NCBI GenBank assembly: GCA_001816585.1
Contig: MHCJ01000002.1
Coordinates: 1-38,367 of the forward strand
Direction of reading: 5' to 3'
DNA: 38,367 nucleotides
Source: Candidatus Chisholmbacteria bacterium RIFCSPHIGHO2_01_FULL_52_32
GTDB lineage: Bacteria; Patescibacteriota; Microgenomatia; UBA1400; Chisholmbacteraceae
Positions 1 through 22,825 of this stretch are shown piece by piece (the stretch's first letter is position 1; each line of letters opens with the position of its first letter). The notes beneath the pieces are model-generated. The model did not search any database. It saw nothing but the letters and a program-made list of their open reading frames with translations, and had not been told where the DNA came from. The translations under genes were made by a program, and so were the position numbers.

Positions 1-1422
1 GGGCGTCAGTCCACCCTGGTTGACAAGGTTCGACCTTGTCAGTCCTCCCTCCTTCGCCTCGCCGGAGTCCTGGACGAAGGCGGGTCCCCTCTGCTCTTCG
101 CTCTCTGCCATCCGCCCTCCACCCTCAACCCTCGACCCTAAACCCTCTCCTCTCATCATCCCTATCCCGAACACCCTCCCCAACCAGCCAATTGGGAACT
201 GTGGACTTTTGACTTTTGACTTTTGACTTTGGACTACTCCTTCTCCCGCCTCACGGGAGAAGGAGAGGACCACTGCCAACGTGAAGTAGTATTTCAAACT
301 ATATAAAAAGAATACGCTCCCCATCATAAGCGCAATTGAAGCAAACACCCATCCCATAGCTTGATAGAGGCTCGCGGCTGATCCAATCAGCCTCCCCCAC
401 TCAAAGCTGCCAAACAGAATGAGAAATACAAGAAGGAGGAACGGAGAGGAGCGGAACAAAGAAGAAAGAGCCGGAACTAACCCCGGTGCCGCCGGCCCAG
501 AGGGCCTCAGGCCCGGAGGGGGTCCCGCCGGAGCCCGCGTCGGCACGAACTGCTCAAACACCTGCTTCAGACGGCCAAGCCAGGATAGTTCCGGCCGTAC
601 ATCCAGTATCTCTTCGGCCTGCCGCCGTAAAAACCTTGCATACGCTTCCCGCAAGGACACAGAGGCAAGGTTATGGCTGCGCAGCACTTTCCATACGGTA
701 AAGCTTGAGGCGGGCACAAAGCTTGCGAGCCTGTGGACGGAAAGCCGAGGCTGGCTCGCAACAAGTGATAGAAGTTTCTCCTCTATCAACGGGTAAATCG
801 CCCGCGGATGTGCAGCCGCGCGAGCATATCGCTCCCGAAATGCCTCCGAACTAATCAACCCGATTTCTGATGCCCTCTTATACTTTTCAATCCACTTATA
901 GATAGTTTTTCTGGCAACCCCATGTCGTTTCGAAAGCTCGGAAATCGGTACATTCTCATCAATTGCCTCCCTGACGATGGAAAGCTTGATTTCCGGAGTC
1001 AACCGCCCCGGCCCCGACCACTGCTTGGCAAAAACCCTTCGAAGTGCCGGCGTTGAAACCCCGAGTGAACGTAGCAGCTTAAAAACACCAAAGTACCCGA
1101 CGGAGATGCCCCGCTTCTTTAACTCATAGCTGAACTTCCTGCATCCCCATTCGGGGTGCGCTACGGCCAAACGAACAAGCACTAGACGCGCCGCTTCAGC
1201 CGCTATCCTTGGGTGGCGATCTCCTGAAACATACCGAGGTTCAAGTGAAGCAGCCTTAAGCCGGGCCGGGCTACTTTGATATCGCTTAATCCATTTATAG
1301 ATAGTCTTGCGGGCGACGCCGAACTCTCGACTGACAGCAGAAACGGGTTTTCGCGCCTGAAGAACCGCCTCAACGGCCTGGCGCTTAAGTGAAGAAGAAA
1401 TGCGGAGCCTCTGGGCAGACAT
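1..1422 (-). CDS. Partial CDS whose 3' end runs off the window start: N-terminal 474 aa of a paralogue of the HTH-HTH-TM-GT2 fusion at 2843..7765
   Basis: Absent from the ORF track because no stop lies in the window. Hand check: ATG is the complement of 1420-1422, and no tta/cta/tca triplet occurs in frame down to position 1. An upstream in-frame stop lies at 1486-1488. The translation has two HTH modules (MSAQRLRISSSLKRQAVEAVLQARKPVSAVSREFGVARKTIYKWIKRY... and ...ISELSKRHGVARKTIYKWIEKY...). TM helices follow (...WVFASIALMMGSVFFLYSLKYYFTLAVVLSFSREA...), colinear with the first ~470 aa of the 1640-aa ORF. Nucleotide blocks 164-189 and 268-354 match 6441-6466 and 6575-6661. Confidence 0.8.
   Translation of the reverse strand, partial: MSAQRLRISSSLKRQAVEAVLQARKPVSAVSREFGVARKTIYKWIKRYQSSPARLKAASLEPRYVSGDRHPRIAAEAARLVLVRLAVAHPEWGCRKFSYELKKRGISVGYFGVFKLLRSLGVSTPALRRVFAKQWSGPGRLTPEIKLSIVREAIDENVPISELSKRHGVARKTIYKWIEKYKRASEIGLISSEAFRERYARAAAHPRAIYPLIEEKLLSLVASQPRLSVHRLASFVPASSFTVWKVLRSHNLASVSLREAYARFLRRQAEEILDVRPELSWLGRLKQVFEQFVPTRAPAGPPPGLRPSGPAAPGLVPALSSLFRSSPFLLLVFLILFGSFEWGRLIGSAASLYQAMGWVFASIALMMGSVFFLYSLKYYFTLAVVLSFSREAGEGVVQSQKSKVKSPQFPIGWLGRVFGIGMMRGEGLGSRVEGGGRMAESEEQRGPAFVQDSGEAKEGGLTRSNLVNQGGLTP
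115..149. repeat. 7-nt periodic tract CCCTNNA x5, in frame inside CDS 1..1422
   Basis: Units are ccctcca ccctcaa ccctcga ccctaaa ccctctc. The sense (minus) strand reads GGG-N4 x5 and encodes ..GEGLGSRVEGGG.. Confidence 0.8.
204..238. repeat. Heptamer tract GACTTTT x3 plus two degenerate units, in frame inside CDS 1..1422
   Basis: Units are gactttt gactttt gactttt gactttg gactact. The sense strand (AAAGTCA)n encodes QSQKSKVKS. The tract lies in the variable cassette between conserved flanks. Confidence 0.85.
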
Positions 1423-1469: not shown

Positions 1470-1503
1470 CCCTCTCTCTATACCCTAAACCCTATACCCT
1501 AAC
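1470..1503. repeat. CCCTA[AT]A-type 7-nt periodic tract in the 5' leader of CDS 1..1422
   Basis: ccctctc tctata ccctaaa ccctata ccctaac, which reads TTAGGG/TATAGGG-like on the minus strand. Confidence 0.75.
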
Positions 1504-1514
1504 CACTATTATAA

Positions 1515-1544
1515 AGTGTTACCTACCATGCTAACACCTGTCAA
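1515..1544 (-). promoter_or_regulatory. Putative promoter block for CDS 1..1422, conserved with 7780..7808
   Basis: The minus strand reads cTTGACAggtgttagcatggtaggTAACACt. The other paralogue has cTTGACAcaatacccatgaaaggTAACAAT upstream of its start. Shared elements are cTTGACA, catg and aggtaaca. Confidence 0.35.
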
Positions 1545-1716
1545 GCCCCAAAGATTACTCTGGAAAAACTCCATGTGCTCCTGTGAAAACACGTCGCGAA
1601 GGCAACCAATCAAACAAATTCGAAGCAAAAGACGGAACGGGCCCCCACCACGGACAAGCGCCGTCTGCAAGCCTAACAGCACTTGTTGATTCCGAGTGCA
1701 ATAAAGAAACCACGCT

Positions 1717-1982
1717 CTTATTCCCCTTTGGAGATCGTGCAGTATGAAGCGAGTCGAGCTCGTGCGGGAAACGGAAACTGAACCTGATCCGCCAGCTTGC
1801 GGAGAAGGTAAATTTCCGAGGGCTCCCGCCGAGCGAAACGAAGTGACACCAGCAGAGCTTCACGAGGCACCCTTTCTTGCCTGCCCGCCGTAGTTTCCGA
1901 ATGCGAAGCACGACTAGGTATCGAGCGATCAAGTCGCGAAACGAATGGCGGGGTTACTTCTTTGGGTGCGCAAAGAAGTAAC
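1717..1982. ncRNA. Candidate structured noncoding element, copy X (partner copy at 34005..34194); strand unresolved
   Basis: No convincing ORF in the 800-nt gap. A perfect 12-bp hairpin spans 1953-1982 (gttacttctttg / ggtgcg / caaagaagtaac). The loop-edge gggtgc (1964-1969) is complementary to gcaccc (1867-1872). Blocks are shared with copy Y: ttcccctttgRa, gaRaacgaagtga and gYRccctttctt. Confidence 0.4.
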
Positions 1983-2220
1983 TAGCCTTCTATACGCTCA
2001 ACAGCCGCTGATTCTTTCTCCTCAAAAACAAAAGCATAACTAAACCCCTGCCCGCCAAAGCAACCCGAACGGAGCCTCGACAAATGATCGAGGCGCAGTA
2101 TCGAGAGCGCCGGAGGGCCCGCCCCGCATACGACGTGCCTGAGAGTGTAGGCGGTACGCCACAGATCAGGCAGGATTTGTGCGGGGACCAGAAGACTCAA
2201 CCGTCAGGTTGAGAAAAAAG

Positions 2221-2853
2221 CTATGTTGACCGCACGCTACCCATCAGAGATCCTTTTTCCTCTAATACGTACGCGTAGGAAAACCACCAGAAGAAAAATA
2301 ACCAAGCCAGGACCGCGAGCGTCGAACCGTAGTCATGAAAGACAATCGCAACCGACTGGCCGAAGGCATACGCGATCAGGACAACGGCCGCAATCCGGAA
2401 CAGATTCACCAAAAACGTTCCCAAGAACCCGATCATCCACGCCTTAACCTTTGACAAATCCGTATATCGGTCCCCCTGCAAACCAACCCATGAGGTAATC
2501 ACGAAGAACAACAAAGATTGCCATCCGATGCAGTTCCAGGCAATCTCAACTAATAGTTGAGATTGTCCTGAGCGACTGAAAGGAGTCGAAGGACCCCCTC
2601 CGATCGCCAAATACTCCCCAACAACGCCCGGCTTAAGCCCAAGCGGCCAAAGGATCACCCCCACCATCCTAACCTCCCAGGGAACAACGTAATCTTGGAT
2701 CACCTTATATCCATCTAAACTCATCACAATACGTGTTAATACATCATTGAAAGTCGTTACAAAAGGCATAAAAACCAGTACTACAACCAAGATTATGAAT
2801 ATCCAGATAAAAGTTTCTTTTTCCAATAATATGGTTTTTTGTTTAATGAGCAT
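2221..2853 (-). CDS. Exosortase/archaeosortase-family-like polytopic membrane protein (210 aa)
   Basis: Start chosen at the internal ATG 2853 (MLIKQKTILLEK...). The longer ORF to 2973 would lie inside the upstream gene. Motifs resembling the exosortase Cys/Arg/His set: ..VEIAWNC(108)IGWQSLLFF.., ..FLVNLFR(153)IAAV.., ..AIVFH(173)DYGS... The protein is hydrophobic throughout. It overlaps the stop of the 1640-aa gene by 11 nt. Confidence 0.6.
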   Translation of the reverse strand: MLIKQKTILLEKETFIWIFIILVVVLVFMPFVTTFNDVLTRIVMSLDGYKVIQDYVVPWEVRMVGVILWPLGLKPGVVGEYLAIGGGPSTPFSRSGQSQLLVEIAWNCIGWQSLLFFVITSWVGLQGDRYTDLSKVKAWMIGFLGTFLVNLFRIAAVVLIAYAFGQSVAIVFHDYGSTLAVLAWLFFFWWFSYAYVLEEKGSLMGSVRST

Positions 2854-5800
2854 TTTTCTCCTTGCGCCAACCCTTGAGCGCTTTTGGCAAAAACGGGGCC
2901 AGTACCAATAAAATGAGGGATTTTTCGGGAACTGTCGCGAATTCAAAATTGCCGGTGCCTTGCCGCAAGACAACTCCAGCCTCTGAAATATTGGTAACTA
3001 CTCTCATCGAGGCAACATGGCCCAAGTCTCCCGGACTAAAACCGTATGGGCAACCTCCTACCGATTGGCAAACATCGCTTTCAACCGAATTAGTAGCTTC
3101 GTCCCACCTTAAGAAATAGGCTTGTTCCGATGTATCCTTAATTACGGAAAGAATTAGGTCGTTTTCGCTTGAAGCGTATGTTGCCGTTGCATAAATCAGG
3201 TTGGTTGCGCCGGTAAAAACACTGGAAGACGACCAGCTCCTTCCCGCATCGGTGCAAGGAGTTGCACAGCGATACAGGGTTGATGTATTAGCTCCATTAA
3301 CCGCATGAACATAAAAATCACCATCACTAGTCTTAACCAGACCAAAGCTTGTGGAAGTGTTGGCCGTGTCTATTGCAACTTCGGTTCCCCATGTATTGCC
3401 TGATACATCGCGGTAGTTATGCCTTAAGCCCGTGGCACCGGCCTCCTGCCAAACAAAGTGAATGTTGTTTCCGTCGACTGTTGCTGTCAACTGGTCTGCT
3501 GCGGTAATCCCTGAACCGGTGGTAATATCCGTAAAGGTAACTGATCCGTCACAATTTGCCGTTACTCCCGTTACCTCCAAGACATCCGGATCGTCAGAAT
3601 AACTGACAACGAAGTCCCCGTTGGTCCCTTTATTAATGCTCACATAATCACTAAGGTTTACGTTGCCTAAATCGGCACTGGAACAAACTGCAGTTCCTGG
3701 AGTATCCGAACTGGCGGTATCAATAGATTGAAAGTTGATATCATCCCCCGTGGTGTTTGTGTCGTCAAACCAGGCGACCCAAATGGTAGTTCCATCAAGG
3801 GTAACAACCGGTCCTTCATTGTCTGTATCACCGCCATCGCTCATTAAAACATCGCTTCCGCTACTCCAGCTGGCTCCTCCATTATTGCAATTACTGGAGC
3901 ATTTCCGGTAGGCAATCCTGCCTCCGTCGTTGTGGAAGGCATAATAAGCATTTGAAACATAAACAAGCTTTTGCTCCTGGCCTCCAAAATCAACATCGGC
4001 ATCAACGATATTTCCTGAAACAATCACCGAAGGGTCAAGCACTACTGGATATATTCTATTCGGAGCGCTCGTCCACTCTAAAGCACCTCTTTCCAATTTT
4101 TTGATAAATGTATACGAGGTTAAATCCTTTTCAACCTCGAATTTTATGTCCCTGTTTCTTTCGGACGTATTATTCTTTTCGTAAACTACACCTTCTCCCA
4201 ATTTGAATACTTCATTGTTTTCCTCATCGAATACGCCATACGTTCCATTTGTACCAATAAGTCGGACCTCATGGAGAGCCATCTTCTGCATAATGCCTTT
4301 AATGGGAAGTCTCTCTCTGATGATAAATTGCTCAATAAACCCGCTTGGTTTGATTTTATAAACAAGGTCAACGCCCTCTACTATTTCCTCATAACGAACC
4401 TCTTGGTCATCAATAATGAGGCTTTTCTTTGGACTTACCGCCCCGATACCGGTAATTTCCAGAGTGGTAATTTCCATTTCTCTTTCGCCAATTTTTATTC
4501 TCACTCTTGGTTCTTTGTGAAATATCATCTCCAATTCTCTTCCGTCTTCCTGTGTAACTCTTATCTGTCTCGGTGTGCCTATAACTTCAACCTTAGTCTC
4601 TGGTGTCTTGCCTTCAACAGCGTCCTGAACCGAAACGAATTTCTCTCCCGAGTTTGCCTGGGCAGTGGCTGTAATGGGTATAAAAGGAGCCATGATTACA
4701 AGAAGGCTGGTTATTAATACCACAAGGGAGAATGCCGCATCCCCAGCCCAACGCATATGACGCGGCCTTATTCTGAAGTTTTGGAATCGGTTATTGGCCG
4801 TAGCAAGGACAAGGTAGGGTTGAATCGTACCAATCAATGAGCCCTTGGAAATCCGGCTCTGGAGAGGTGCAGGCCACCTGCTTGGCAGGATTCCGGACAT
4901 AAACCGATAGAACCGTCCCCTCCGAAATATATCCGTGATTCTGCCCGTCTTCGGTGTCCGGAACCAGGGCCCCTCTGAGCGCTCTAAAAATCCCTTCACC
5001 GATGCGTACGCTTGAAACGGGACAAGCAGGTACGAAAGGGTTACAAAAGAGAATATTCCTAAATAATCCCGCTCCTCCGCCTCCTCAAGAAACAACCCGA
5101 CGGTATTGAGAAGTGGCAGAGATAGCAAGTTGGTTACCACCAAAGACCAACCCCACACCTGGGTCCAAAATGGGAGACGGGTACGGAAAACCATCTCAGA
5201 AATAAGCCAGCTGACTGTGCCAATCAGAAAGAAGGCGGCTTGGAGGTAGTAGGGGGAAAGGTAGAGGAACTCCAGTTTCTCTGAAAAAGAGAGGGGGGAA
5301 GGTAACCACACCATTCCCTGTTTCTGGGAGGGATAATTGTTATATTGTTCTATTGTTCTATTGTTTTCCTGTCTGAAACTTTGAACTTTAAACTGTAACT
5401 TTTCACTTTGAACTTTAAACTTTGAACTTTCAACATCCGCCCACCGGCCAAACAGGAGCCTCAGGAATGTCTTGCGGATGTTGAAGGAGTGTCCCTCCGC
5501 CCAGCGCATCCGCTGCCTGACGAGTCGCTGGAGGGTGGACACGCATTCCGCGGGAGCCTGGATATATGGGGTGTATAAGACTTTATATCCCGCTTCGTAA
5601 AGCCTTAAGGTAAGCTCAAAGTCTTCGGTAAGAGTTGTTCCCCACCCAAAACGGTCGAGCAAGTCCCTGCGTATCATATAGACAGACCCGGCAATCAATT
5701 TCATACCACCGTAGAGTTCATTCCCACTCCGCTCAACGACATACGACCCGGCGTATTCGGATCGGATGCCCCTGGTAATCCAGTTCTCCGATTTGTTCAG

Positions 5801-7765
5801 GACATGCCACTGGTAGCCCTGGATAGCGGCGATCGGAGAACTGAAAACTGAAGACTGAAGACTGAAGTTTTGTCTTGAGTCTTTAGTATTTATTTTTAAG
5901 TCAAGACTTCCCGCGCTTGCCTGGAAGTACTTCAGGAACAATTCCAGCGTATCCGGGTACGGGACAAAGTCCGCATCAAACACCACCACAAACTCTGTTC
6001 GGGGGTCACTGACCCGGAGCGCCTCGCGGAGGGCCCCTCCCTTGAAGCCTTCCCGATCTGCACGGTGGATCAGGGTGAATGAAGGAGTATCAGGGGTGGA
6101 AGGGGTAACGTGAAGAATTTCCTCCCCCTGATCTCCCTTGATCTCCCTTGCTTCCCCTTGATATCCCTTCAGGAATCGTTCCACGATTCCTGTTGTCTCA
6201 TCCGTGCTGTCATCGGCGACCACAACCTCGTAGTTTGGATAGTCAAAGGACGTACAGGCTTTAAGGAGTCTCTCTACCACCTTGGATTCGTTGAAAAGAG
6301 GCAGATGGACGGAGATGAAGGGATACCGCTCAAGCTTGACCTGGGATACATCAGGCGTAAGCCCAGTTTGACTGGGTTCCAGTCCCCCTCCCGAAGAGCT
6401 CGATCCCGGATCGGGCATTGACGATCCGGGATCGTTATGGATCCCGAACACCCTCCCCAACCAGCCGATCTTTGAACTGAAAACTGACGACTGACGACTG
6501 AAGTCTTGTTTTGAGTCTTGTGTGCTAAGTCTTGAGCCTTGAGTTAAGTCTTGAGCTTCCCTGGAGAAGCTCAAGACTACTGCCAACGTGATGTAGTACT
6601 TCAAACTATATAAAAAGAATACACTCCCCATCGAAAGCGCGATCGAGGCAAACACCCATCCGAGAAGTTGGACAGGACTGGTTGCGGATCCAAGAAACCT
6701 ACCCCATGCAAAGCTCCCTGACAGAACAAGAGCGGAAAGTACAAAGAAAGGAAGAGATCGCCGCAGCAAGGAAAAAAGAGATCGTACCCCTCCGACTAGC
6801 CCGCCGAAGCCTTGCCGTGCGTCGCCAAAGGCTCTGCCGGCGGCGCGGCGAAGGCGGGAGCCAAAATCAAAGGGGGGCGGCCCGATCGGCGCGCCGGTGA
6901 CAAGAAATTCTACGATCGCAAGCCTCAGGTAATTCAACCATGCGGTCAATGGGTAAACAGGCAAACGGGCCGCGCGAATCTGCCTGGAGTACGCCAGTCG
7001 CCTTTCAATAGTAGATAACCCGCTTCGCTCAAGAACCCGCTGCACTCCATGGTTTCCTACGAATCCCAGTCGCTTCGCAATCTTCCCCGCGGAATACTCG
7101 GGGTAAGCCGCCACAAAGTCAAGCACCACCCGCTCTTTCTCCTTGCGCAAACCCCGGGGATGCTGTGATGCAGAAGGGTTACGGTCCTCCAAAGCAACAA
7201 GCAGTCTCTCATTCCGAGTGATTGCGTCCAGATACCGCCGCTTCCATTTCACCAATGTCTTTCGGGAAACGTGGAATTCCCGGGCCACCTCCCCGCTCTT
7301 CCGCTTCGAAAGAACCACTTCCTCAACCATCCGTTTTCTCGCCGAAGCGTGTAAGCGCAACCACGCGGGAAGCCCGGGCTGAACTTTCGCAGGGATTCGA
7401 TACGAAGATGCAAATGCCTCCCGTTCGATCCGCAACTGAAGCCCCTGATGCTTCAGGAACAACCACACACTCCGAGGGCTCATTTGAATTCGTTGTTCAC
7501 CAAGAGCCCATGAGATCTTATCCGGCCCAAACTCAGGATGGGAAATGATGATGGGAAGGAGCCTGTTGCTTGCGGGCTCACTCCGGCTGACGCGTTTGGC
7601 AGCCGATTCCTCCGGAGTACGCCTGATTTCCGGCCCGTACCGATGAAGCCAAGCGTAGATGGTCTTTCTTGAAACTCCCAGGCGTCTTGAAGCCTCGGCT
7701 TTGGTTACTCGTCCTCGAAGAACGTGTTTGAGGAGGAATCGTACTCTATACGAGAGATTTAGCAT
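2843..7765 (-). CDS. 1640-aa multidomain fusion: 2x transposase-type HTH, TM helices, processive family-2 glycosyltransferase, TM helices, extracellular Asp-box/BNR-like domain and a PEP-CTERM-like tail
   Basis: Single 4.9-kb ORF. HTH modules: ..EASRRLGVSRKTIYAWLHRY.. and ..EVAREFHVSRKTLVKWKRRY... GT2 motifs: ISVHLPLFNESKVVERLL..YEVVVADDSTDET, VVFDADFVP and QRMRWAEGH (QxxRW). Several hydrophobic helices flank the GT2 domain. The C-terminal ~600 aa contain ..NGGASWSS.. and ..DAGRSWSS.. (Asp-box-like). The tail is FEFATVPEKSLILLVLAPFLPKALKGWRKEKNAH. Confidence 0.85.
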   Translation of the reverse strand: MLNLSYRVRFLLKHVLRGRVTKAEASRRLGVSRKTIYAWLHRYGPEIRRTPEESAAKRVSRSEPASNRLLPIIISHPEFGPDKISWALGEQRIQMSPRSVWLFLKHQGLQLRIEREAFASSYRIPAKVQPGLPAWLRLHASARKRMVEEVVLSKRKSGEVAREFHVSRKTLVKWKRRYLDAITRNERLLVALEDRNPSASQHPRGLRKEKERVVLDFVAAYPEYSAGKIAKRLGFVGNHGVQRVLERSGLSTIERRLAYSRQIRAARLPVYPLTAWLNYLRLAIVEFLVTGAPIGPPPFDFGSRLRRAAGRAFGDARQGFGGLVGGVRSLFSLLRRSLPFFVLSALVLSGSFAWGRFLGSATSPVQLLGWVFASIALSMGSVFFLYSLKYYITLAVVLSFSREAQDLTQGSRLSTQDSKQDFSRQSSVFSSKIGWLGRVFGIHNDPGSSMPDPGSSSSGGGLEPSQTGLTPDVSQVKLERYPFISVHLPLFNESKVVERLLKACTSFDYPNYEVVVADDSTDETTGIVERFLKGYQGEAREIKGDQGEEILHVTPSTPDTPSFTLIHRADREGFKGGALREALRVSDPRTEFVVVFDADFVPYPDTLELFLKYFQASAGSLDLKINTKDSRQNFSLQSSVFSSPIAAIQGYQWHVLNKSENWITRGIRSEYAGSYVVERSGNELYGGMKLIAGSVYMIRRDLLDRFGWGTTLTEDFELTLRLYEAGYKVLYTPYIQAPAECVSTLQRLVRQRMRWAEGHSFNIRKTFLRLLFGRWADVESSKFKVQSEKLQFKVQSFRQENNRTIEQYNNYPSQKQGMVWLPSPLSFSEKLEFLYLSPYYLQAAFFLIGTVSWLISEMVFRTRLPFWTQVWGWSLVVTNLLSLPLLNTVGLFLEEAEERDYLGIFSFVTLSYLLVPFQAYASVKGFLERSEGPWFRTPKTGRITDIFRRGRFYRFMSGILPSRWPAPLQSRISKGSLIGTIQPYLVLATANNRFQNFRIRPRHMRWAGDAAFSLVVLITSLLVIMAPFIPITATAQANSGEKFVSVQDAVEGKTPETKVEVIGTPRQIRVTQEDGRELEMIFHKEPRVRIKIGEREMEITTLEITGIGAVSPKKSLIIDDQEVRYEEIVEGVDLVYKIKPSGFIEQFIIRERLPIKGIMQKMALHEVRLIGTNGTYGVFDEENNEVFKLGEGVVYEKNNTSERNRDIKFEVEKDLTSYTFIKKLERGALEWTSAPNRIYPVVLDPSVIVSGNIVDADVDFGGQEQKLVYVSNAYYAFHNDGGRIAYRKCSSNCNNGGASWSSGSDVLMSDGGDTDNEGPVVTLDGTTIWVAWFDDTNTTGDDINFQSIDTASSDTPGTAVCSSADLGNVNLSDYVSINKGTNGDFVVSYSDDPDVLEVTGVTANCDGSVTFTDITTGSGITAADQLTATVDGNNIHFVWQEAGATGLRHNYRDVSGNTWGTEVAIDTANTSTSFGLVKTSDGDFYVHAVNGANTSTLYRCATPCTDAGRSWSSSSVFTGATNLIYATATYASSENDLILSVIKDTSEQAYFLRWDEATNSVESDVCQSVGGCPYGFSPGDLGHVASMRVVTNISEAGVVLRQGTGNFEFATVPEKSLILLVLAPFLPKALKGWRKEKNAH
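2846..2947 (-). other. C-terminal tripartite sorting-signal candidate (VPEK motif, hydrophobic helix with APFLP, basic cluster)
   Basis: FEFATVPEKSLILLVLAPFLPKALKGWRKEKNAH aligns with the tail of the Kelch protein, IVIPERVWLLFGAAPFLPLLLKRRRKE. Confidence 0.55.
5334..5365. repeat. 8-nt periodic tract (NNATTGTT x4) in frame within the GT2 fusion
   Basis: taattgtt atattgtt ctattgtt ctattgtt. The sense strand (AACAATNN)n encodes ENNRTIEQYNNY. The same unit type occurs intergenically at 26902..26949. Confidence 0.8.
5376..5434. repeat. 7-nt periodic tract (AACTTTN, about 8 units) in frame, just downstream of the QxxRW motif in the protein
   Basis: aaactttgaactttaaactgtaacttttcactttgaactttaaactttgaactttcaac encodes ESSKFKVQSEKLQFKVQSF. 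Confidence 0.8.
5841..5908. repeat. Low-complexity module, copy 1: CTGAAGA-type heptamer x4, then gtcttgagtctt-type arm
   Basis: ctgaaaa ctgaaga ctgaaga ctgaagt tttgtcttgagtcttt... encodes DSRQNFSLQSSVFSS. It parallels the module at 6477..6556. Confidence 0.8.
6130..6170. repeat. 10-nt periodic tract (GATCTCCCTT-like x4) in frame
   Basis: g atctcccttg atctcccttg cttccccttg atatcccttc. The sense strand has four GGG(G) runs with 6-7 nt loops and encodes KGYQGEAREIKGDQGE. Confidence 0.75.
6477..6556. repeat. Low-complexity module, copy 2: CTGACGA-type heptamer x4, then repeated (a)agtcttgag units
   Basis: ctgaaaa ctgacga ctgacga ctgaagt cttgttttgagtcttgtgtgctaagtcttgagccttgagttaagtcttgagc encodes ..QDLTQGSRLSTQDSKQDFSRQSSVFSS.. 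Confidence 0.8.
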
Positions 7766-7779: not shown

Positions 7780-7808
7780 ATTGTTACCTTTCATGGGTAT
7801 TGTGTCAA
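7780..7808 (-). promoter_or_regulatory. Putative promoter of the 1640-aa gene (TTGACA-17-AACAAT), leaving a very short leader
   Basis: The minus strand reads cTTGACA caatacccatgaaaggt AACAAT ggatttagctgccc ATG. The block is conserved upstream of the paralogue (1515..1544). Confidence 0.4.
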
Positions 7809-8391: not shown

Positions 8392-8420
8392 TTGACACCA
8401 ATCATATCAACTTTTATACT
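8392..8420 (+). promoter_or_regulatory. Sigma70-type promoter for the MerR-family gene
   Basis: TTGACA (8392-8397), a 17-nt spacer, then TATACT (8415-8420), 22 nt upstream of the ATG at 8443. Confidence 0.6.
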
Positions 8421-8442: not shown

Positions 8443-8748
8443 ATGAACACGCAAAATCCCATCATTTCAATCAGTGTCGCAGCCAAACTACTAAAATTGC
8501 ACCCAAGAACGCTTATGCTTTATGAAAAAACAGGGCTTCTTGCCCCCTACCGAACTCAAACCAGCCGACGCCTCTATTCAAAAGATGATCTGGCAATTCT
8601 TCACTTCATCAAATTCCTCACCCAGGAGAAACGAATAAGCCTGCAAGGGGTCCTCTACCTTCTCAAAGCCATACACCTCGCGGAGGGACGTAACCTCGAA
8701 CTGCAAAGACTTCTTTTCCCGGAGTACAAAAAAAAGACTCTCGTTTGA
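8443..8748 (+). CDS. MerR-family transcriptional regulator, HspR-like
   Basis: Start taken at the internal ATG 8443, downstream of the promoter. ..ISISVAAKLLKLHPRTLMLYEKTGLLAPYRTQTSRRLYSKDDLAILHFIKFL.. matches the MerR N-terminal HTH pattern. Confidence 0.75.
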   Translation: MNTQNPIISISVAAKLLKLHPRTLMLYEKTGLLAPYRTQTSRRLYSKDDLAILHFIKFLTQEKRISLQGVLYLLKAIHLAEGRNLELQRLLFPEYKKKTLV

Positions 8749-9156: not shown

Positions 9157-11259
9157 CTAAAAAGCGCTGCGGTCGAGCTCACTTTCACGCCCACCCAGCC
9201 GTTCAATGAAAAGCGAAACACGCTGCGAAAATTGCGGTCGGAAAAGAACGAATAACAGCGCCACTACACTCACCACAATTCCCGAAATCACATCCAACCA
9301 CGGTTCATAGCGAAGTTTGATCGTCAGTATCCCCGATCGTACGGGCCGAAGCACAATCATCCCCATTGGATCCCGCACAAGCGAAACGGGCATAGAGGTC
9401 TCACCAACGCGCCAGAACGGCGAGGAAGCAACCGCCAATCGAACGCCCTGACCCTCGTTGACTTGCGCCGCAATATCCACTTCCCGCTCCCCCGTAAATC
9501 GGACCACAGCCGGCTCTCCGAGTTTCTCAACATACCCCAAAAGACCCGACGCATCATCGCCCTTTTCAGGAGGTAAAACGGACAAAATCCCCAAATCAGC
9601 CACCTCCGCCAGCCCCCGTTTTTGTCTCCGGTAAATCATATCTCCCGCACGCTCCCAAACCTTCTCCCACCCCTCCATGCCGTCAAACTTCGAAGGATAC
9701 CGGAAATCGTGGTAAACCTCCAAAGATTCCTCCCCATGTACCACCAGATACGAAACGCCCAAGACTTTAAGCCACAGATCGGCAAGTTCCGCATCTCTCC
9801 CCTCTCGGATTTGATACGATCCATGCGGCCACCACGGATTAAGCGATCCCTGTTCTCCTCCTCCCCGAACCTGCGCCACATCAAACCAGCTGTTAAGCCA
9901 GAACGCCGAACTTCCCGAAACATACGCCCGAAGAGAGCAATTGCCGACTTCCCTGCAGTCATCATCCATGAACCGGGACAACGCTTCTCCCACCCGGTAT
10001 TCCGCAGTCTCAGGAAAAGCCACCCCCTCAGAAATCATGATTCCCCTCTTGAAAAAAAACGGCAATCCGAGGACAAGCATCCCCGCAAACACCCAAAGTC
10101 GCAGTGTACGCCCCATATTTCTGTCCCAAATGAGCCCGGTGAGGGACATCCCCACCGCAAGGTCCAAAGACCGTCCGAACCGGCTGTAGTCCTGCCAAAA
10201 ATCCGGATCGGCAGTAAAAGCTGCCACGGTCAAACTGCCGTATACGAGAAGCCCCATTATCCCGATCACAGTGAGAGGCGAAGCCGTTCGGAACCACTTC
10301 CGCGCCGCAACCACCCCGAGGATCGCAGGAATAACCACGAAAAACTGTCTGAAAAGCCCAGCCACAACCACCGCAAACGGTCGACCGCCCAGGGACGGCG
10401 CACGGAGAACCGTGAAGAAGAAGCCCGGGGTAAACCAAAGACTCGTCATCAAAACCCCAAGCAGAGTAACCACCAGAAGTCGCGCGAATAACTTCACAAG
10501 ACCCCCCGAAGCGATTGTCGGCCGAACCACAGCCGCCAGCAGAAGCACCAGAATCCAAAGGAAAAAGGAAATCAGGCTCAACGAATCCACCAGAATCATC
10601 GCTCCAACCGCCAAAGCCAGCCACCTCGCCTTCCCGACCTCCCATTTCTTGGCCAGCATGAGGCAGAGAAGCAATGCCATCATGACGAACACAAAACCGA
10701 TCACACCCTGCCCCTCGCCAAGGTAAAATGCCGAGAACATCAGAAAGGACGGAAATCCGAGAGGACGAAGCACACCAAATATCTGGGGAAATAAAACCAA
10801 TACAGAAGGTATCAATATGGTAAAAAATGTAACAAAAATGGCGGGTATTGTCGCGTCAACGGATGACGCATTCAAGCGAGCCTTCTTCTGATCGCCGGAC
10901 ATAAAGGAAAGCTCTCTCACCAAGAACAGGCTGACCGCGTAAACAGCCCCCACCACCCCCACCACTCCAGACGCCACCATCCCTCGCCACACGCGAAATA
11001 ACGATCCGGGATCGTTATAAGGAAAAAGAGACAAAATCCAAGGCAAAACAGGCGACCCGATGTGCTGCCCGGGGATTCCCAAAAACCAATACCGGTTCCA
11101 ACTCCAACCACCCAAACCCTGCCCCAAAAACCGCGCTTTCGCAAGCACAAACCCATCCGCCGCCCCCATCCACGCCGGACTACGCACACCCAATGCCGGG
11201 AAAACCCATAGGAAAGAAACGAAAAGAATCAGAAAGAGCCCAAACCAAGTCCACTTCAC
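9157..11259 (-). CDS. Large polytopic membrane protein, putative GT-C-type glycosyltransferase (YfhO-related organisation)
   Basis: 700 aa with a GTG start. More than 10 hydrophobic helices, then a soluble C-terminal domain and a terminal TM (..LTIKLRYEPWLDVISGIVVSVVALLFVLF..). The N-terminal ..WNRYWFLGIPGQHIGSPVLPW.. resembles the loop-1 region of YfhO-like proteins. Family assignment is tentative. Confidence 0.5.
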   Translation of the reverse strand: MKWTWFGLFLILFVSFLWVFPALGVRSPAWMGAADGFVLAKARFLGQGLGGWSWNRYWFLGIPGQHIGSPVLPWILSLFPYNDPGSLFRVWRGMVASGVVGVVGAVYAVSLFLVRELSFMSGDQKKARLNASSVDATIPAIFVTFFTILIPSVLVLFPQIFGVLRPLGFPSFLMFSAFYLGEGQGVIGFVFVMMALLLCLMLAKKWEVGKARWLALAVGAMILVDSLSLISFFLWILVLLLAAVVRPTIASGGLVKLFARLLVVTLLGVLMTSLWFTPGFFFTVLRAPSLGGRPFAVVVAGLFRQFFVVIPAILGVVAARKWFRTASPLTVIGIMGLLVYGSLTVAAFTADPDFWQDYSRFGRSLDLAVGMSLTGLIWDRNMGRTLRLWVFAGMLVLGLPFFFKRGIMISEGVAFPETAEYRVGEALSRFMDDDCREVGNCSLRAYVSGSSAFWLNSWFDVAQVRGGGEQGSLNPWWPHGSYQIREGRDAELADLWLKVLGVSYLVVHGEESLEVYHDFRYPSKFDGMEGWEKVWERAGDMIYRRQKRGLAEVADLGILSVLPPEKGDDASGLLGYVEKLGEPAVVRFTGEREVDIAAQVNEGQGVRLAVASSPFWRVGETSMPVSLVRDPMGMIVLRPVRSGILTIKLRYEPWLDVISGIVVSVVALLFVLFRPQFSQRVSLFIERLGGRESELDRSAF

Positions 11260-11270
11260 ACCGCTATCTT

Positions 11271-11299
11271 AACATCAAACATCAAACTGCCAAACTGCC
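11271..11299. repeat. Short 7-nt periodic intergenic tract
   Basis: aacatca aacatca aactgcc aaactgcc, in the divergent intergenic region 11260..11401. Confidence 0.6.
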
Positions 11300-11401
11300 C
11301 CTCTAACTCAACACCCCTACTGGAACTCCTCCATTCGCTTGATTACAATAAGATAGCCTTAGACCCGCAAACAACAACCTTTACCTCAACCACGACCGTC
11401 A

Positions 11402-15933: not shown

Positions 15934-15937
15934 CGTA

Positions 15938-16768
15938 TTATCGTGCAAAGAGCCGAATAAACGCCAGTTTCCCGAGAAAATAACCAACTGATTTCGCCTG
16001 AACAAACAGGCTTTCAAATCTATTCATCGGGTGCCGTTCGGCGTACTCAGCCTGGAGCAATTGGTGCTCGGAGATCGATCGCTTGAGAAGTTTCGTCGTC
16101 CCGGCTGACTTGTGAATGCGGAAAGAAAAAAGAGTTTTGTCAATGGAATACCCGTCACCATGCTCAAGAAGCTGGATCCAAAAATCCAAATCCGCCATAT
16201 GCCGAAACTTCTCCACCCTGAAGTGTAAACGTCCGGCCTCTACAACGCTCATTCGAAACATCGTCCCGCTCGGCTCTCCGATGGGATTGCGGGCACTCGA
16301 AAGAATAGTCCTCACTAGCCTTCTTCCCTGAATTCTCTGACTTCGATTAGAAAATCTTCTCGTAACAAGCCTCCTCCCCACAGAGTCAACCACCTCGCTT
16401 GAACCAAATACCAGGGAAACCCCCGGAAACCGCTCCAAAACCGCCACTTGCTCCTCAAGGCATTTCGGCGCCAACACATCATCCGCACAAAGTATCTTTA
16501 TATAAGGTGTATTTGAAAGGGCAAGACAACGGTTCAAGTTCTGATACAATCCCAGGTTCTCCCGATTCCGATGGATGGCTACCCGAGGATCAGCATAGCG
16601 CTTCAGGGCCTTAAGCGTCCCATCGGTCGAGCCGTCATCAACCACCAGAATTACGAAATCCCGATAGTCCTGCCGAAACACGCTCTCAATCGCCTCCCCG
16701 ATATAGCGCTCTTCATTAAAACAGGGGATACAGACGGTAAGCTTCGCGGTATGTCCCATCGCCGCCAT
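15938..16768 (-). CDS. Family-2 glycosyltransferase (soluble)
   Basis: ..CIPCFNEERYIGEAIESVFRQDYRDFVILVVDDGSTDGT.. and ..ILCADDVL.. (DxD-type). Confidence 0.85.
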   Translation of the reverse strand: MAAMGHTAKLTVCIPCFNEERYIGEAIESVFRQDYRDFVILVVDDGSTDGTLKALKRYADPRVAIHRNRENLGLYQNLNRCLALSNTPYIKILCADDVLAPKCLEEQVAVLERFPGVSLVFGSSEVVDSVGRRLVTRRFSNRSQRIQGRRLVRTILSSARNPIGEPSGTMFRMSVVEAGRLHFRVEKFRHMADLDFWIQLLEHGDGYSIDKTLFSFRIHKSAGTTKLLKRSISEHQLLQAEYAERHPMNRFESLFVQAKSVGYFLGKLAFIRLFAR

Positions 16769-16845
16769 CGTATCACATAGCGTTCAAGTTATGTCTCCAT
16801 CCCTATCAACTGCTGTTCGATTATGCTATACAACGCACAGAGGGT

Positions 16846-17436
16846 ATGCTTGATCTCGTTCTCTATGTACTCGAGAAGTTCTTCCGAAACCTCGCAGACT
16901 TCCTTCACGGAATCCGTCTGTTACAGAGGAAACCGCCGGAGAAGTTTTCGAAGCCGTTGCGCCTGGATCTGGGTATCGGCCTGTCAAAACCACCGGGATT
17001 CGTCGGCATCGACATCGCACTGTTACCGAGGGTCGACCTCATTCACGATCTTGAGACAGGCCTTCCTTTCCCCGATAGTTCGGTCAGGGAAATCCGCGCC
17101 TCCCATACGCTCGAGCACTTACCCCACAGGACGATTCCCACCCTACTGAGGGAGTGTTTCCGGGTATTGGAGCCCGGTGGGAAGATAACGATCAAGGTCC
17201 CCGATCTTGAAAAGGTGATGAGAAGCTTTCTCAAGCTCAATGAGGAGAAGCGTTGGAAAGAAGCCTGGGAATGGATCTTCGGAAGTCAATCACGCAAAGG
17301 TCAATTCCACAAAACCGGCTTTACCAAACCAAGGCTCCGCAGACTCCTCAACGAATCAGGCTTTGCCGATATTACAATCGCAAACTACCGAACCGGAGTC
17401 AGATCGTCGCTTTCTGCCACCGCAACCAAACACTAA
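16846..17436 (+). CDS. Class I SAM-dependent methyltransferase
   Basis: ..LDLGIGLSKPPGFVGID.. (motif I-like), ..PFPDSSVREIRASHTLEHL.. and ..RVLEPGGKITIKVPD.. (Methyltransf_11-like). Confidence 0.7.
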   Translation: MLDLVLYVLEKFFRNLADFLHGIRLLQRKPPEKFSKPLRLDLGIGLSKPPGFVGIDIALLPRVDLIHDLETGLPFPDSSVREIRASHTLEHLPHRTIPTLLRECFRVLEPGGKITIKVPDLEKVMRSFLKLNEEKRWKEAWEWIFGSQSRKGQFHKTGFTKPRLRRLLNESGFADITIANYRTGVRSSLSATATKH

Positions 17437-19668: not shown

Positions 19669-19688
19669 GCCTGCAGCCCACACTCTCC

Positions 19689-22824: not shown

Positions 22825-22825
22825 T

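What the first reader, a model, noticed from the sequence alone, without database searches (positions are those of the whole stretch)
2843..7765. One polypeptide combining duplicated transposase-type HTH modules, a processive GT2 synthase and a sorted extracellular domain
A single uninterrupted 4.9-kb ORF, read N to C, contains:
- two [HTH + winged-helix-like] modules of the kind found at the N-terminus of IS3/IS481/IS630-type transposases, with no DDE domain anywhere;
- TM helices;
- a GT2 domain with DDS/DAD/QxxRW motifs typical of processive beta-glycan synthases;
- 4-5 further TM helices;
- a roughly 600-aa Asp-box-like ectodomain.

The neighbouring paralogue (1..1422) keeps the same HTH-HTH-TM start, so the fusion is not an assembly accident or a one-off. 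A membrane-tethered DNA-binding domain on a polysaccharide synthase would couple envelope synthesis directly to DNA binding or regulation. I do not recognise this as a described architecture.
Basis: partly seen in the sequence, partly recalled or inferred. Interest (0 to 1): 0.75.

Follow-up and report, generated by a model that had tools for sequence, protein, structure and literature searches.

The report
DNA-binding, sortase-linked glycan synthase family
This is a real, recurrent gene family of ultrasmall (Patescibacteria) bacteria in which one membrane protein combines a transposase-derived DNA-binding head, a cellulose-synthase-like sugar polymerase and a surface domain with a sorting tail, and the DNA-binding head appears to recognise a signature site in the gene's own promoter.

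Summary
It is not an assembly artefact. More than 70 loci in Microgenomates-type Patescibacteria carry the same fusion, including complete genomes and single-cell genomes, often as tandem paralogues.

Three features were not in the finding:
1. The next gene (2221..2853) is an exosortase/archaeosortase homologue with invariant Cys-Arg-His. It follows the synthase in 21 of 32 complete loci. The synthase ends in a matching VPE–TM–basic tail in 27 of 32.
2. Every family gene has a signature promoter with a conserved element between and over the -35 and -10 boxes (7782..7808 and 1517..1544 here). Strict versions of the two motif types scanned against 596 Gb of genomes hit almost only promoters of this family.
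3. The two motif types co-vary perfectly with the recognition-helix residues of the synthase's own HTHs (44/44). They do not co-vary with a conserved divergent MerR neighbour.

Best model: a self-regulating, membrane-embedded, sortase-processed surface-glycan synthase. DNA binding, the glycan product and tail cleavage are inferred, not shown. I found no published description.

The parts
7782..7808 (-). Signature promoter/operator (type 1) of the synthase gene: TTGACA-caATACCCATGaaaGGTAACA. -35 is at 7808..7803 and -10 (TAACAA) at 7786..7781. The ATG at 7765 leaves a 5'UTR of only about 9 nt.
   Evidence: A strict type-1 pattern gives 17 hits in 596 Gb of GTDB genomes. 15 are in Patescibacteria beside family genes, 14 of them directly upstream; ~1.6 hits are expected by chance.
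7373..7765 (-). HTH module 1 (aa 1-131): HTH_28/HTH_23 three-helix unit plus a second helical subdomain. Recognition helix GVSRKTIYAW.
   Evidence: Pfam; NCBIfam IS630/IS3 N-terminal match; AlphaFold pLDDT >90; covariation.
6950..7372 (-). HTH module 2 (aa 132-272): HTH_Tnp_1 + HTH_32, IS481-like N-terminus. Recognition helix HVSRKTLVKW.
   Evidence: Homologous to module 1.
6566..6949 (-). Pro-rich hinge (APIGPPP) and the two TM helices before the GT domain (aa ~338-358 and ~365-400), including the invariant family motif GSVFFLYSLKYY.
   Evidence: Hydropathy; invariant columns; long helices 325-359 and 364-412 in the model.
5456..6328 (-). GT2 catalytic domain (aa 480-770) with DDS, DAD, TED and QRMRW.
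   Evidence: Pfam/NCBIfam. Best solved relative is BcsA (E 2e-7), aligned around TED/QxxRW.
4658..5278 (-). Post-GT membrane region (aa 830-1036): TM 841-859, TM 874-893, an interface-like helix ~903-922, a gating-loop-like PWFRTPKTGR, and TM 1005-1036.
   Evidence: Hydropathy. Nearly invariant W-F-R-T-P-K-T-G columns. Compared with the BcsA core and its FxVTxK loop as described in PMC8892547.
2942..4657 (-). Ectodomain (aa 1037-1608): predicted beta-sandwich plus beta-propeller. This part varies between paralogues.
   Evidence: AlphaFold (pLDDT 62.5); Foldseek; other family members carry different C-terminal domains.
2846..2941 (-). C-terminal tripartite sorting-type signal: FATVPEK - SLILLVLAPFLP - KALKGWRKEKNAH (motif, TM, basic cluster).
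   Evidence: Read. The same tail occurs in 27 of 32 3'-complete family ORFs and on the Kelch protein of this window.
2221..2853 (-). Exosortase/archaeosortase-family gene (210 aa). It overlaps the synthase stop codon by 11 nt, so it is co-operonic.
   Evidence: TIGR04178 E 2e-10, 40.7 bits against a cutoff of 23. Weak PF09721 match. Homologues are named exosortase/archaeosortase family protein. Invariant C108, R153, H173. A homologue lies <1.5 kb downstream of the synthase in 21 of 32 loci. Called as a 210-aa gene on the parent contig.
1..1422 (-). N-terminal 474 aa of a paralogue (HTH-HTH-TM...). On the parent contig it is 4877 aa with GT2 and Kelch repeats.
1517..1544 (-). Type-1 signature promoter/operator of the paralogue: TTGACAggtGTTAGCATGgtaGGTAACA, 122 nt before its ATG.
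   Evidence: 0 matches in 100 shuffles.
8443..8748 (+). Small MerR-family regulator (101 aa), divergent from the synthase, with its own promoter-like site at 8392..8420. It is a conserved neighbour and the rival candidate binder.
   Evidence: Pfam; gene; present divergently upstream in at least 12 loci; promoter; no covariation with operator type.
34287..38336 (-). Kelch-repeat surface protein (1349 aa) with the same IPE-TM-basic tail. It is a probable second substrate of the sortase.

Best explanation
The gene encodes one member of a Microgenomates-specific family of self-contained surface-glycan machines. The model has six steps. Each is marked as predicted or inferred; none is shown experimentally.

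1. The gene is transcribed from a sigma-70-like promoter carrying a family-specific operator over its spacer and -10 box (sequence-level inference).
2. The first part translated is a tandem pair of bipartite, transposase-derived HTH modules. They stay in the cytoplasm, held to the membrane by a proline-rich hinge and two TM helices (predicted).
3. These modules bind the operator of their own gene and most likely repress it. An IS transposase or OrfA N-terminus does the same at a promoter embedded in the left inverted repeat. This would give each huge paralogue its own copy-number control (inferred).
4. The cellulose-synthase-like GT2 core polymerises a beta-linked glycan from a nucleotide sugar and threads it through its own TM channel (inferred by homology; the product is unknown).
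5. The variable ectodomain, here a beta-sandwich plus beta-propeller, sits outside like a fused BcsB. It binds the nascent glycan or a host surface (inferred).
6. The VPE-TM-basic tail is recognised by the co-operonic exosortase/archaeosortase homologue. That enzyme cleaves the tail and transfers the new C-terminus to a lipid or glycan acceptor (inferred by homology with ArtA and EpsH).
For: Architecture. It is confirmed and recurrent. The N-terminal 480 aa define a small clade: 386 clusters at E<1e-3 among 1.84 billion representatives, so this is not a generic transposase match.

HTH region. The N-terminal 329 aa are very basic (K+R 64 against D+E 27). The AlphaFold model has pLDDT >90 in both modules.

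Operator specificity.
- A loose motif hits 45 times in 849 kb of loci, and essentially all hits lie upstream of family genes.
- The strict type-1 pattern hits 17 times in 596 Gb. 15 hits are at family genes; ~1.6 hits are expected by chance.
- The strict type-2 pattern hits 19 times, 17-18 of them at family genes; ~0.14 are expected.
- The flanking intergenic DNA is not conserved.
- The -10 is invariantly the non-consensus TAACA.
- Type-1 sites have a partial dyad GTnnCC-N6-GGnnAC.
- Type-2 promoters carry a second TGTTWACA box 35-52 nt downstream in 16 of 23 cases; 0.39 are expected.

Covariation.
- 24 of 24 type-1 genes have SRKT-type recognition helices.
- 20 of 20 type-2 genes have SR[TV][LIV] in HTH1 and SR[PTNV] in HTH3.
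- Both types coexist on single contigs (L012, L038, L081, L087).
- The MerR neighbour keeps the same recognition helix, LHPRTLMLYEK, in both types.

Sortase. It is supported by the TIGR04178 hit, the Cys-Arg-His invariants, the conserved gene adjacency and the conserved tail. The Cys, Arg, His order matches EpsH (PMC1569441).

GT2 core. The motifs and the BcsA match support it. The layout of 2 TM + GT + 2 TM/IF + gating loop matches the minimal cellulose synthase core described in PMC8892547.
Against: - No experiment shows DNA binding.
- Foldseek hits of the HTH model to paired-domain and Tc3 DNA-binding domains are not significant (best E 0.27). No solved relative is found by sequence.
- The operator-HTH covariation involves only two ancient paralogue lineages, so it is confounded by shared ancestry. 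Another regulator that I could not see, because whole genomes were not searchable, could co-vary too.
- A MerR gene is a conserved divergent neighbour, and type-2 promoters have the 19-bp spacer typical of MerR-controlled promoters.
- Repression rather than activation is a guess based on site position.
- Only one TM follows the gating loop before the ectodomain. The C-terminal TM may therefore be an integral core helix or a BcsB-like tail anchor, which is hard to reconcile with its removal by a sortase.
- The synthase lacks the N-terminal signal peptide of classical exosortase substrates.
Confidence: 0.55

Rival explanations
1. The signature promoter element is the operator of the divergently encoded MerR-family regulator, or of another trans-acting factor. 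The synthase's HTH modules do something else, such as tethering the nucleoid or plasmid DNA to sites of envelope synthesis, or binding DNA without sequence specificity.
For: A MerR-like gene lies divergently upstream in at least 12-16 loci, including this window. Type-2 promoters have a 19-bp spacer, and the element lies between -35 and -10. Both are typical of MerR-type control (own knowledge).
Against: The MerR recognition helix is the same in type-1 and type-2 loci, whereas the synthase HTHs switch with the operator type. MerR is absent from the sequenced flanks of most loci that carry the motif. The MerR promoter is ~590 nt away from the synthase promoter, not overlapping it. Type-1 spacers are 16-17 bp.
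Confidence: 0.2
2. The HTH modules are a domesticated fold that no longer binds DNA. They act as a cytoplasmic regulatory or oligomerisation domain of the synthase, functionally like the PilZ domain of BcsA. The promoter motif is then simply a lineage-specific strong promoter.
For: No direct evidence of DNA binding exists. Structural matches are not significant. The neighbour matches the IS481 leucine-zipper model, which suggests a dimerisation role.
Against: The canonical recognition-helix signature (SRKT.Y.W) is conserved in both modules. The region has a strong positive charge. Spacer bases that RNA polymerase does not need are conserved. Helix residues co-vary with the operator type.
Confidence: 0.15
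3. The C-terminal VPE-TM-basic segment is a permanent membrane anchor: core TM6 or a BcsB-like tail anchor needed for catalysis. The adjacent exosortase homologue then processes other proteins, such as the Kelch protein, or has a non-proteolytic role.
For: Only one TM follows the gating loop. The BcsB tail anchor is indispensable for BcsA activity, and BcsA-BcsB fusions exist (PMC8892547). The synthase has no signal peptide.
Against: The tail has the full tripartite form and a conserved PE motif unrelated to any BcsB tail. The same tail occurs on an unrelated Kelch protein. Synthase-sortase adjacency holds in 21 of 32 loci, often with only 70-140 nt between the genes.
Confidence: 0.25
4. The fusion is an artefact (chimeric assembly or a missed frameshift), or it is a recent IS insertion remnant with no function.
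For: The window comes from a metagenome scaffold. The HTHs are transposase-like.
Against: The same architecture occurs in more than 70 independent loci. These include the complete genomes CP011214 and OY970314 and single-cell genomes. Proteins are only 25-49% identical, so the fusion is ancient and under selection. The identical protein is found on 4 contigs.
Confidence: 0.02

Closest known systems
BcsA-BcsB bacterial cellulose synthase, including fused BcsAB polypeptides, and other processive GT2 synthases (PgaC, NodC, hyaluronan and chitin synthases)
   Same: GT-A domain with D, DxD, TED and QxxRW. Two TM helices before the GT domain and TM/interface helices after it. A gating-loop-like F-x-T-x-K motif. 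An extracytoplasmic carbohydrate-type domain ending in a C-terminal TM, as in tail-anchored BcsB, which is sometimes fused to BcsA.
   Different: Only distant sequence similarity (E ~1e-7, restricted to the TED/QxxRW region). No PilZ or c-di-GMP module. An N-terminal DNA-binding region replaces it as the cytoplasmic accessory domain. The ectodomain is unrelated to BcsB and varies between paralogues. The tail carries a sortase-type motif. The product is unknown.
PEP-CTERM/exosortase (EpsH, XrtA) and archaeosortase (ArtA/PGF-CTERM, ArtC/PEF-CTERM) sorting systems
   Same: A polytopic membrane enzyme with invariant Cys, Arg, His in that order. A tripartite C-terminal signal (short motif containing P-E, TM helix, basic cluster). 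Genetic linkage to exopolysaccharide genes. Target genes preceded by long intergenic regions with a shared cis-regulatory motif (PMC1569441).
   Different: It belongs to no named subfamily: the best match, ArtC, scores 27.8 bits against a cutoff of 100. The motif is [VIL]PE[KN] with an internal PFLP[KG]. The main substrate is a polytopic glycan synthase without a signal peptide. Enzyme and substrate are paired gene by gene in a dedicated arrangement. The host is a Patescibacterium.
Transmembrane transcription regulators (ToxR, TcpP, CadC, ChiS, TfoS)
   Same: A cytoplasmic DNA-binding domain tethered to the membrane, with an extracytoplasmic domain on the same polypeptide. Such proteins are documented to regulate genes directly from the membrane (PMC11856585 abstract).
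   Different: Those are dedicated regulators or sensors, mostly single-pass, with OmpR-type winged helices. Here the DNA-binding part is a duplicated paired-like transposase HTH on a multi-pass biosynthetic enzyme, and the inferred target is its own promoter.
N-terminal DNA-binding domains of IS481/IS3/IS630 transposases and their HTH-only regulators (OrfA, InsA)
   Same: Homologous bipartite HTH. An inferred binding site overlaps the promoter of the gene that encodes the HTH, the arrangement by which many IS elements autoregulate (own knowledge).
   Different: No DDE catalytic domain. No terminal inverted repeats noticed. The module is duplicated and fused to a membrane enzyme, so this is not a transposase.
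Trigger enzymes such as PutA (an enzyme that is also a DNA-binding autoregulator and associates with the membrane)
   Same: One polypeptide combines catalysis with transcriptional control of its own gene. This is a functional analogy only (own knowledge).
   Different: Unrelated folds and chemistry. PutA cycles between DNA and membrane, whereas this protein is permanently membrane-embedded.

Membership tests
Processive family-2 glycosyltransferase (cellulose-synthase-like synthase) | GT-A domain with D, DxD, TED and Q(R/Q)xRW motifs | tested here: met
   Pfam PF13641/PF13632/PF00535 above cutoff. DDS, DAD, TED and QRMRW read and nearly invariant in 31 homologues. Aligned to BcsA TED/QRxRW.
Processive family-2 glycosyltransferase (cellulose-synthase-like synthase) | Minimal membrane core: 2 TM before GT, TM + interface helices, gating loop FxVTxK, 2 TM after it (PMC8892547) | tested here: inconclusive
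   2 TM before the GT domain, 2 TM plus an interface-like helix after it, and WFRTPKTG are present. Only one TM lies between the gating loop and the ectodomain, so a sixth would have to be the C-terminal tail TM. This rests on hydropathy only; no dedicated topology predictor was available.
Processive family-2 glycosyltransferase (cellulose-synthase-like synthase) | Makes and exports a beta-linked polysaccharide | not testable with these tools
   NCBIfam scores for PgaC (66 bits) and CelA (63.5 bits) are similar and far below their cutoffs, so the product cannot be assigned.
BcsA proper | C-terminal PilZ domain sensing c-di-GMP | tested here: not met
   No PilZ hit in Pfam or NCBIfam.
Exosortase/archaeosortase superfamily (the 210-aa neighbour) | Signature model match and invariant Cys, Arg, His in that order | tested here: met
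   TIGR04178 40.7 bits against a cutoff of 23. C108, R153 and H173 are invariant in 18 sequences. The residue order follows PMC1569441. The Pfam PF09721 match of this copy is weak (18.3 bits, cutoff 25.7), but the family is recorded for many homologues.
Exosortase/archaeosortase superfamily (the 210-aa neighbour) | Membership of a named subfamily (XrtA-..., ArtA-F, XrtG) | tested here: not met
   Best scores are ArtC 27.8 bits (cutoff 100), ArtF 18.4 (cutoff 150) and XrtG 9.8 (cutoff 102.75).
PEP-CTERM-type sorting substrate (the synthase) | C-terminal tripartite signal: short conserved motif, TM helix, basic cluster | tested here: met
   VPEK / SLILLVLAPFLP / KALKGWRKEK. Present in 27 of 32 complete family ORFs and on the Kelch protein. 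No NCBIfam CTERM model matches above noise (PepA E 0.07).
PEP-CTERM-type sorting substrate (the synthase) | N-terminal signal peptide; soluble secreted passenger | tested here: not met
   The N-terminus is a 330-aa basic cytoplasmic HTH region, and the passenger is a loop of a polytopic protein.
PEP-CTERM-type sorting substrate (the synthase) | Sortase-dependent cleavage and transfer | not testable with these tools
   Needs proteomics or genetics.
IS481/IS3/IS630 transposase | N-terminal HTH DNA-binding domain | tested here: met
   NF033577 positions 2-113, 72 bits (whole-protein cutoff 224); NF033545 and NF033516 partial matches; Pfam HTH_28, HTH_23, HTH_Tnp_1 above cutoff.
IS481/IS3/IS630 transposase | DDE (rve) catalytic domain | tested here: not met
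   No rve/DDE hit. All transposase models match only their N-terminal third and score far below cutoff. The protein is therefore not filed as a transposase.
Transmembrane transcription regulator | Cytoplasmic DNA-binding domain tethered by TM segment(s), with an extracytoplasmic domain | tested here: met
   Topology from hydropathy and the positive-inside rule. The GT2 domain must be cytoplasmic, which places the HTHs inside as well.
Transmembrane transcription regulator | Sequence-specific binding to a target promoter | tested here: inconclusive
   A candidate operator was found and co-varies with the recognition helices. There is no binding assay.
MerR-controlled promoter | 19-20 bp spacer with a centred dyad bound by the adjacent MerR protein | tested here: inconclusive
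   Type 2 has a 19-bp spacer; type 1, including this window, has 16-17 bp. The dyad is off-centre and overlaps -10. MerR does not co-vary with operator type.

The most novel reading that the evidence does not exclude
Each paralogue is an autonomous sense-synthesise-regulate unit. Its N-terminal transposase-derived HTH pair binds, probably co-translationally and in cis, the operator in its own promoter. This HTH-plus-promoter module would have been inherited intact from an insertion sequence. Occupancy of the operator is modulated from outside the cell, through the state of the ectodomain or glycan channel. The dedicated exosortase covalently couples the ectodomain's C-terminus to the glycan or lipid made at the same site. 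Type-1 and type-2 HTH/operator pairs would then be naturally orthogonal regulatory parts coexisting in one tiny cell.
Probability: 0.2. Interest if true: 0.9.

Novelty: new variant of a known kind. Interest (0 to 1): 0.74.

Why it matters
Patescibacteria are abundant, mostly uncultured, host-attached bacteria. Their surfaces and gene regulation are poorly understood.

This family is large, clade-specific and multi-copy, and it has hypervariable surface domains. That makes it a strong candidate for building or decorating the interface with hosts.

If the model holds, it would have three consequences:
- It adds a polysaccharide synthase to the short list of enzymes that regulate their own genes from the membrane.
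- It shows a transposase DNA-binding domain domesticated together with its promoter-embedded site.
- It extends exosortase-type sorting to a new phylum and to a polytopic substrate.

The operator (27 bp) and the HTH region (272 aa) are now defined, and they come in two co-varying types. The central claim can therefore be tested directly in vitro or in E. coli, without culturing the organism.

Tried and rejected
- Foldseek of the 480-aa N-terminal model against PDB. The top hits were Pax6 and Tc3 bipartite DNA-binding domains, but none was significant (E >= 0.27), so they are not used as evidence.
- phmmer of aa 1-270 against PDB sequences: no hit.
- A word-indexed search with the ectodomain alone found only one relative. 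This left a shallow alignment and a mediocre model.
- Rfam and tRNA scans of the window: nothing.
- An RNA hairpin reading of the palindromic part of the motif was rejected. The right arm is invariant while the left arm varies without compensation.
- A conserved small gene or RNA in the 530-1000 nt MerR-synthase gap was sought by blastn and tblastx. Nothing is conserved there except the promoter motif.
- The 150-aa ORF 33831..34283, downstream of the Kelch gene, was tested as a second sortase. It is unrelated.
- Apparent standalone HTH-only proteins in the representative search are mostly fragments that end inside TM1.
- My first type-2 genome scan used the wrong gap lengths and found nothing. 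It was repeated correctly.
- Six literature searches found no description of this architecture. Haft et al. 2012 could not be opened.

Full report
OBSERVATION. The window holds a single uninterrupted ATG ORF of 1640 codons at 2843..7765 on the minus strand.

Domain content of the ORF:
- HTH modules. Pfam finds HTH_28/HTH_23 at aa 12-43, and HTH_Tnp_1 plus HTH_32 at aa 143-244.
- Glycosyltransferase. Three overlapping family-2 glycosyltransferase models cover aa 484-841.
- C-terminus. Nothing is found for the last 600 residues.
- Transposase similarity. NCBIfam matches only the N-terminal ~113 positions of the IS481, IS630 and IS3 transposase models, far below their cutoffs. There is no DDE domain.
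- Duplication. The two HTH modules are homologous to each other (28% identity, E 2e-7).
- Catalytic motifs. DDS, DAD, TED and QRMRW are all present in the translation.

A hydropathy scan gives the following layout:
- a very basic cytoplasmic head (aa 1-329; K+R 64 against D+E 27);
- two TM helices before the GT domain;
- two TM helices plus an interface-like helix after it;
- a nearly invariant PWFRTPKTG that resembles the FxVTxK gating loop of BcsA;
- one more TM (aa 1005-1036);
- a ~570-aa ectodomain;
- a final TM followed by a basic tail.

An AlphaFold model of the N-terminal 480 aa has pLDDT >90 in both HTH modules and shows two long TM helices. The ectodomain model is of modest confidence (pLDDT 62.5). 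It shows a beta-sandwich followed by a beta-propeller. Foldseek matches are to generic propellers: lectins, GH43 enzymes and NanB sialidase.

NOT AN ARTEFACT. A search of 5.8 billion proteins returned 34 strong homologues (39-49% identity). Almost all carry the same HTH + GT2 Pfam combination. Their sources name them Patescibacteria or Woesebacteria 'glycosyltransferase', or 'cellulose synthase-like glycosyltransferase/transposase'.

A scan of one genome per GTDB species found 76 loci:
- The named hosts are Woese-, Curtiss-, Gottesman-, Levy-, Davies- and Chisholmbacteria and unclassified Patescibacteria.
- They include the complete genomes CP011214 and OY970314 and single-cell genomes.
- There are often several paralogues per genome, some in tandem.

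The N-terminal 480 aa retrieve only 386 clusters at E<1e-3 from 1.84 billion representatives. This is a small distinct clade, not generic transposase similarity.

The identical protein occurs on four contigs. On the 54-kb parent scaffold, the neighbour truncated at the window edge (1..1422) is a 4877-aa protein with HTH, GT2 and Kelch repeats.

A DEDICATED SORTASE. The ORF immediately downstream (2221..2853, 210 aa) overlaps the synthase stop codon.
- It matches the exosortase/archaeosortase signature model TIGR04178 above its cutoff.
- Its relatives are 57-76% identical. Many carry PF09721, and NCBI and JGI name them 'exosortase/archaeosortase family protein'.
- Cys108, Arg153 and His173 are invariant. 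That is the residue order Haft et al. noted for EpsH (PMC1569441).
- It fits no named subfamily.

The synthase ends in ...FATVPEK-SLILLVLAPFLP-KALKGWRKEKNAH. This is a tripartite signal of the PEP-CTERM/PEF-CTERM kind.
- Among 32 family ORFs with an intact 3' end, 27 have a [VIL]PE-TM-basic tail.
- Of the same 32, 21 have a sortase homologue within 1.5 kb downstream, often 70-140 nt away.
- The Kelch-repeat protein at 34287..38336 has the same tail.

A caveat remains. The minimal cellulose synthase core has two TM helices after the gating loop (PMC8892547), and here only one precedes the ectodomain. The tail TM might therefore also serve as a core helix, or as a BcsB-like tail anchor. BcsB is a tail-anchored periplasmic partner that is sometimes fused to BcsA (same review). 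I cannot reconcile that role with cleavage of the tail.

A FAMILY-SPECIFIC PROMOTER ELEMENT. When the upstream regions of family genes were lined up, a conserved block appeared. The surrounding DNA is otherwise unconserved and AT-rich. The block comes in two forms:
- Type 1: cTTGACA-N2-4-GT[AT]CCCATG-N3-GGTAACA, with a 16-17 bp spacer and the start codon only ~15 nt after the -10.
- Type 2: CTTGACA-N5-TAYCCA-N5-TGTTAACAT, with a 19-bp spacer. A second TGTT[AT]ACA box lies 35-52 nt downstream, just before the ribosome-binding site, in 16 of 23 cases (0.39 expected).

The window has type-1 copies at 7782..7808, 43 nt before the ATG, and at 1517..1544, before the paralogue.

Specificity was tested without reference to the family. 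Strict patterns were scanned against all 596 Gb of GTDB representative genomes.
- Type 1 gave 17 hits. Fifteen are in Patescibacteria at family genes, 14 of them directly upstream. Two look like chance hits in other phyla. About 1.6 chance hits are expected.
- Type 2 gave 19 hits against 0.14 expected. Of these, 17-18 are at family genes.

Several features point to a protein-binding site on DNA overlapping the core promoter:
- The -10 is always the non-consensus TAACA.
- Spacer bases are conserved.
- Type 1 contains a partial dyad, GTnnCC-N6-GGnnAC.
- The arms do not co-vary as an RNA stem would.

WHO BINDS IT? There are two candidates.

(a) The synthase's own HTH modules. In 47 non-redundant genes, operator type and recognition-helix sequence agree without exception.
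- Type-1 genes have [SA]RKT.Y.W in HTH1 (24 of 24) and SR[KR]T in HTH3.
- Type-2 genes have SR[TV][LIV][FL]Y in HTH1 (20 of 20) and SR[PTNV].. in HTH3.
- Both types occur side by side on single contigs (L012, L038, L081, L087). One cell therefore holds two operator types, each attached to a matching HTH type.

(b) A small MerR-family gene. It lies divergently upstream in this window (8443..8748) and in at least 12 other loci.
- Its recognition helix (LHPRTLMLYEK) is the same in type-1 and type-2 loci.
- It has its own promoter ~590 nt away.
- It is absent from the sequenced flanks of most motif-bearing loci.

I therefore favour self-recognition. This is the logic by which many insertion sequences autoregulate: the N-terminal DNA-binding domain of the transposase, or an HTH-only OrfA/InsA, binds the terminal repeat that contains the transposase promoter (own knowledge). 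On this view the family co-opted an IS 5' end as a unit.

The weaknesses are real:
- The covariation rests on two ancient lineages and is confounded by descent.
- Structural matches of the HTH model to Pax and Tc3 DNA-binding domains are not significant.
- There is no binding experiment.
- The direction of control is a guess from site position.

MECHANISM PROPOSED. The sequence of events is as follows; each step is marked as predicted or inferred.
1. Transcription starts from the signature promoter.
2. The HTH pair emerges first and stays cytoplasmic on a proline-rich hinge (predicted).
3. The HTH pair binds its own operator and probably represses it (inferred).
4. The BcsA-like GT2 core polymerises and exports a beta-glycan of unknown composition (homology).
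5. The variable ectodomain acts outside as a glycan guide or adhesin (inferred).
6. The sortase processes the VPE tail (inferred by homology with EpsH and ArtA; PMC6098224).

The genomic setting fits an envelope-glycan island. It contains five YfhO-family and two TMEM260-like GT-C proteins, two small GT2 enzymes, three sugar epimerases/dehydratases and a methyltransferase.

COMPARISON WITH KNOWN SYSTEMS.
- It works like a BcsA-BcsB fusion but is only distantly related and lacks PilZ.
- It works like a PEP-CTERM/exosortase pair, but with a new motif, a polytopic substrate and a one-to-one gene pairing.
- It resembles transmembrane transcription regulators such as ToxR, CadC and ChiS (PMC11856585) in tethering a DNA-binding domain to the membrane. 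Unlike them, it is a multi-pass enzyme with a transposase-type HTH.
- It is not a transposase, because there is no DDE domain.

Six full-text searches found no description of the fusion, of the sortase pairing in Patescibacteria, or of the promoter motif. The library does not cover subscription journals.

VERDICT. I rate the finding a new variant of known kinds: synthase-dependent glycan export, exosortase sorting and membrane-tethered autoregulation, combined in one polypeptide.

My confidence by component:
- the architecture is real and ancient: ~0.97;
- the sortase processes the tail: ~0.65;
- the HTHs bind the signature operator: ~0.55-0.6.

Interest is 0.74. The combination is surprising, it is restricted to a poorly understood phylum, and its key claim is now directly testable with a 27-bp DNA and a 272-aa protein fragment.

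Noticed in passing
window 34287..38336 (-): A 1349-aa Kelch-repeat protein ends in the same IPE-TM(PFLP)-basic tail as the synthase. Its last ~215 aa weakly resemble the C-terminus of the synthase ectodomain (24.7% identity, E 0.003). It is a probable second substrate of the sortase.
   Followed up: partly
window 8443..8748 (+), promoter-like site 8392..8420: A 101-aa MerR-family regulator with no obvious effector domain is a conserved divergent neighbour of family genes. It is always separated from them by a 530-1000 nt AT-rich gap. Its target is unknown.
   Followed up: partly
window 5830..5909 vs 6466..6545; 5378..5431: There are low-complexity repeat inserts inside the synthase ORF: a pair of 80-nt segments 76% identical, and tandem 27-mers encoding KFKVQSEKLQFKVQSF. 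Homologues carry different low-complexity inserts at the same loop positions.
   Followed up: no
window 1482..1505 and 121..158; L006 and L020 leaders: Telomere-like GGTTAGGGT / ACCCTAAACCCT repeats occur in the 122-nt leader of the neighbouring paralogue. Similar GGTTAGGGTTAC repeats occur in the leaders of two distant family genes. They could be extra binding sites.
   Followed up: no
window 1545..2220: A 676-nt stretch between the sortase gene and the paralogue's promoter has normal GC (0.54) but no convincing ORF, no Rfam hit and no similarity to neighbouring genes.
   Followed up: partly
window 9157..33772: An unusually dense set of GT-C-type membrane glycosyltransferases sits here: five YfhO-family and two TMEM260-like proteins of 700-780 aa. 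Alongside them are two small GT2 enzymes, three epimerases/dehydratases and a methyltransferase.
   Followed up: no
window 9157..11259 (-) and 22826..23905 (-): The first is a 607-700-aa protein with no match in Pfam or NCBIfam. The second is a 359-aa protein with only weak sirtuin/CobB-like matches (E ~1e-7, far below cutoff).
   Followed up: no
L001, L003, L004, L008, L011, L012, L024 and other GTDB loci: Many records carrying this Patescibacteria-specific family and its promoter motif are titled Gammaproteobacteria, Bathyarchaeia, Heimdallarchaeota or Nevskiaceae. These are probably mislabelled or contaminated bins.
   Followed up: no
L077 16344..24923 (continuation of window 1..1422): The neighbouring paralogue is a 4877-aa giant protein (HTH + GT2 + Kelch and more). 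Family members in other loci reach over 3000 aa, so the family contributes to the very long genes of these small genomes.
   Followed up: partly
whole window: GC skew is negative almost throughout (cumulative -5.4 over 38 kb), and most genes lie on the minus strand.
   Followed up: no
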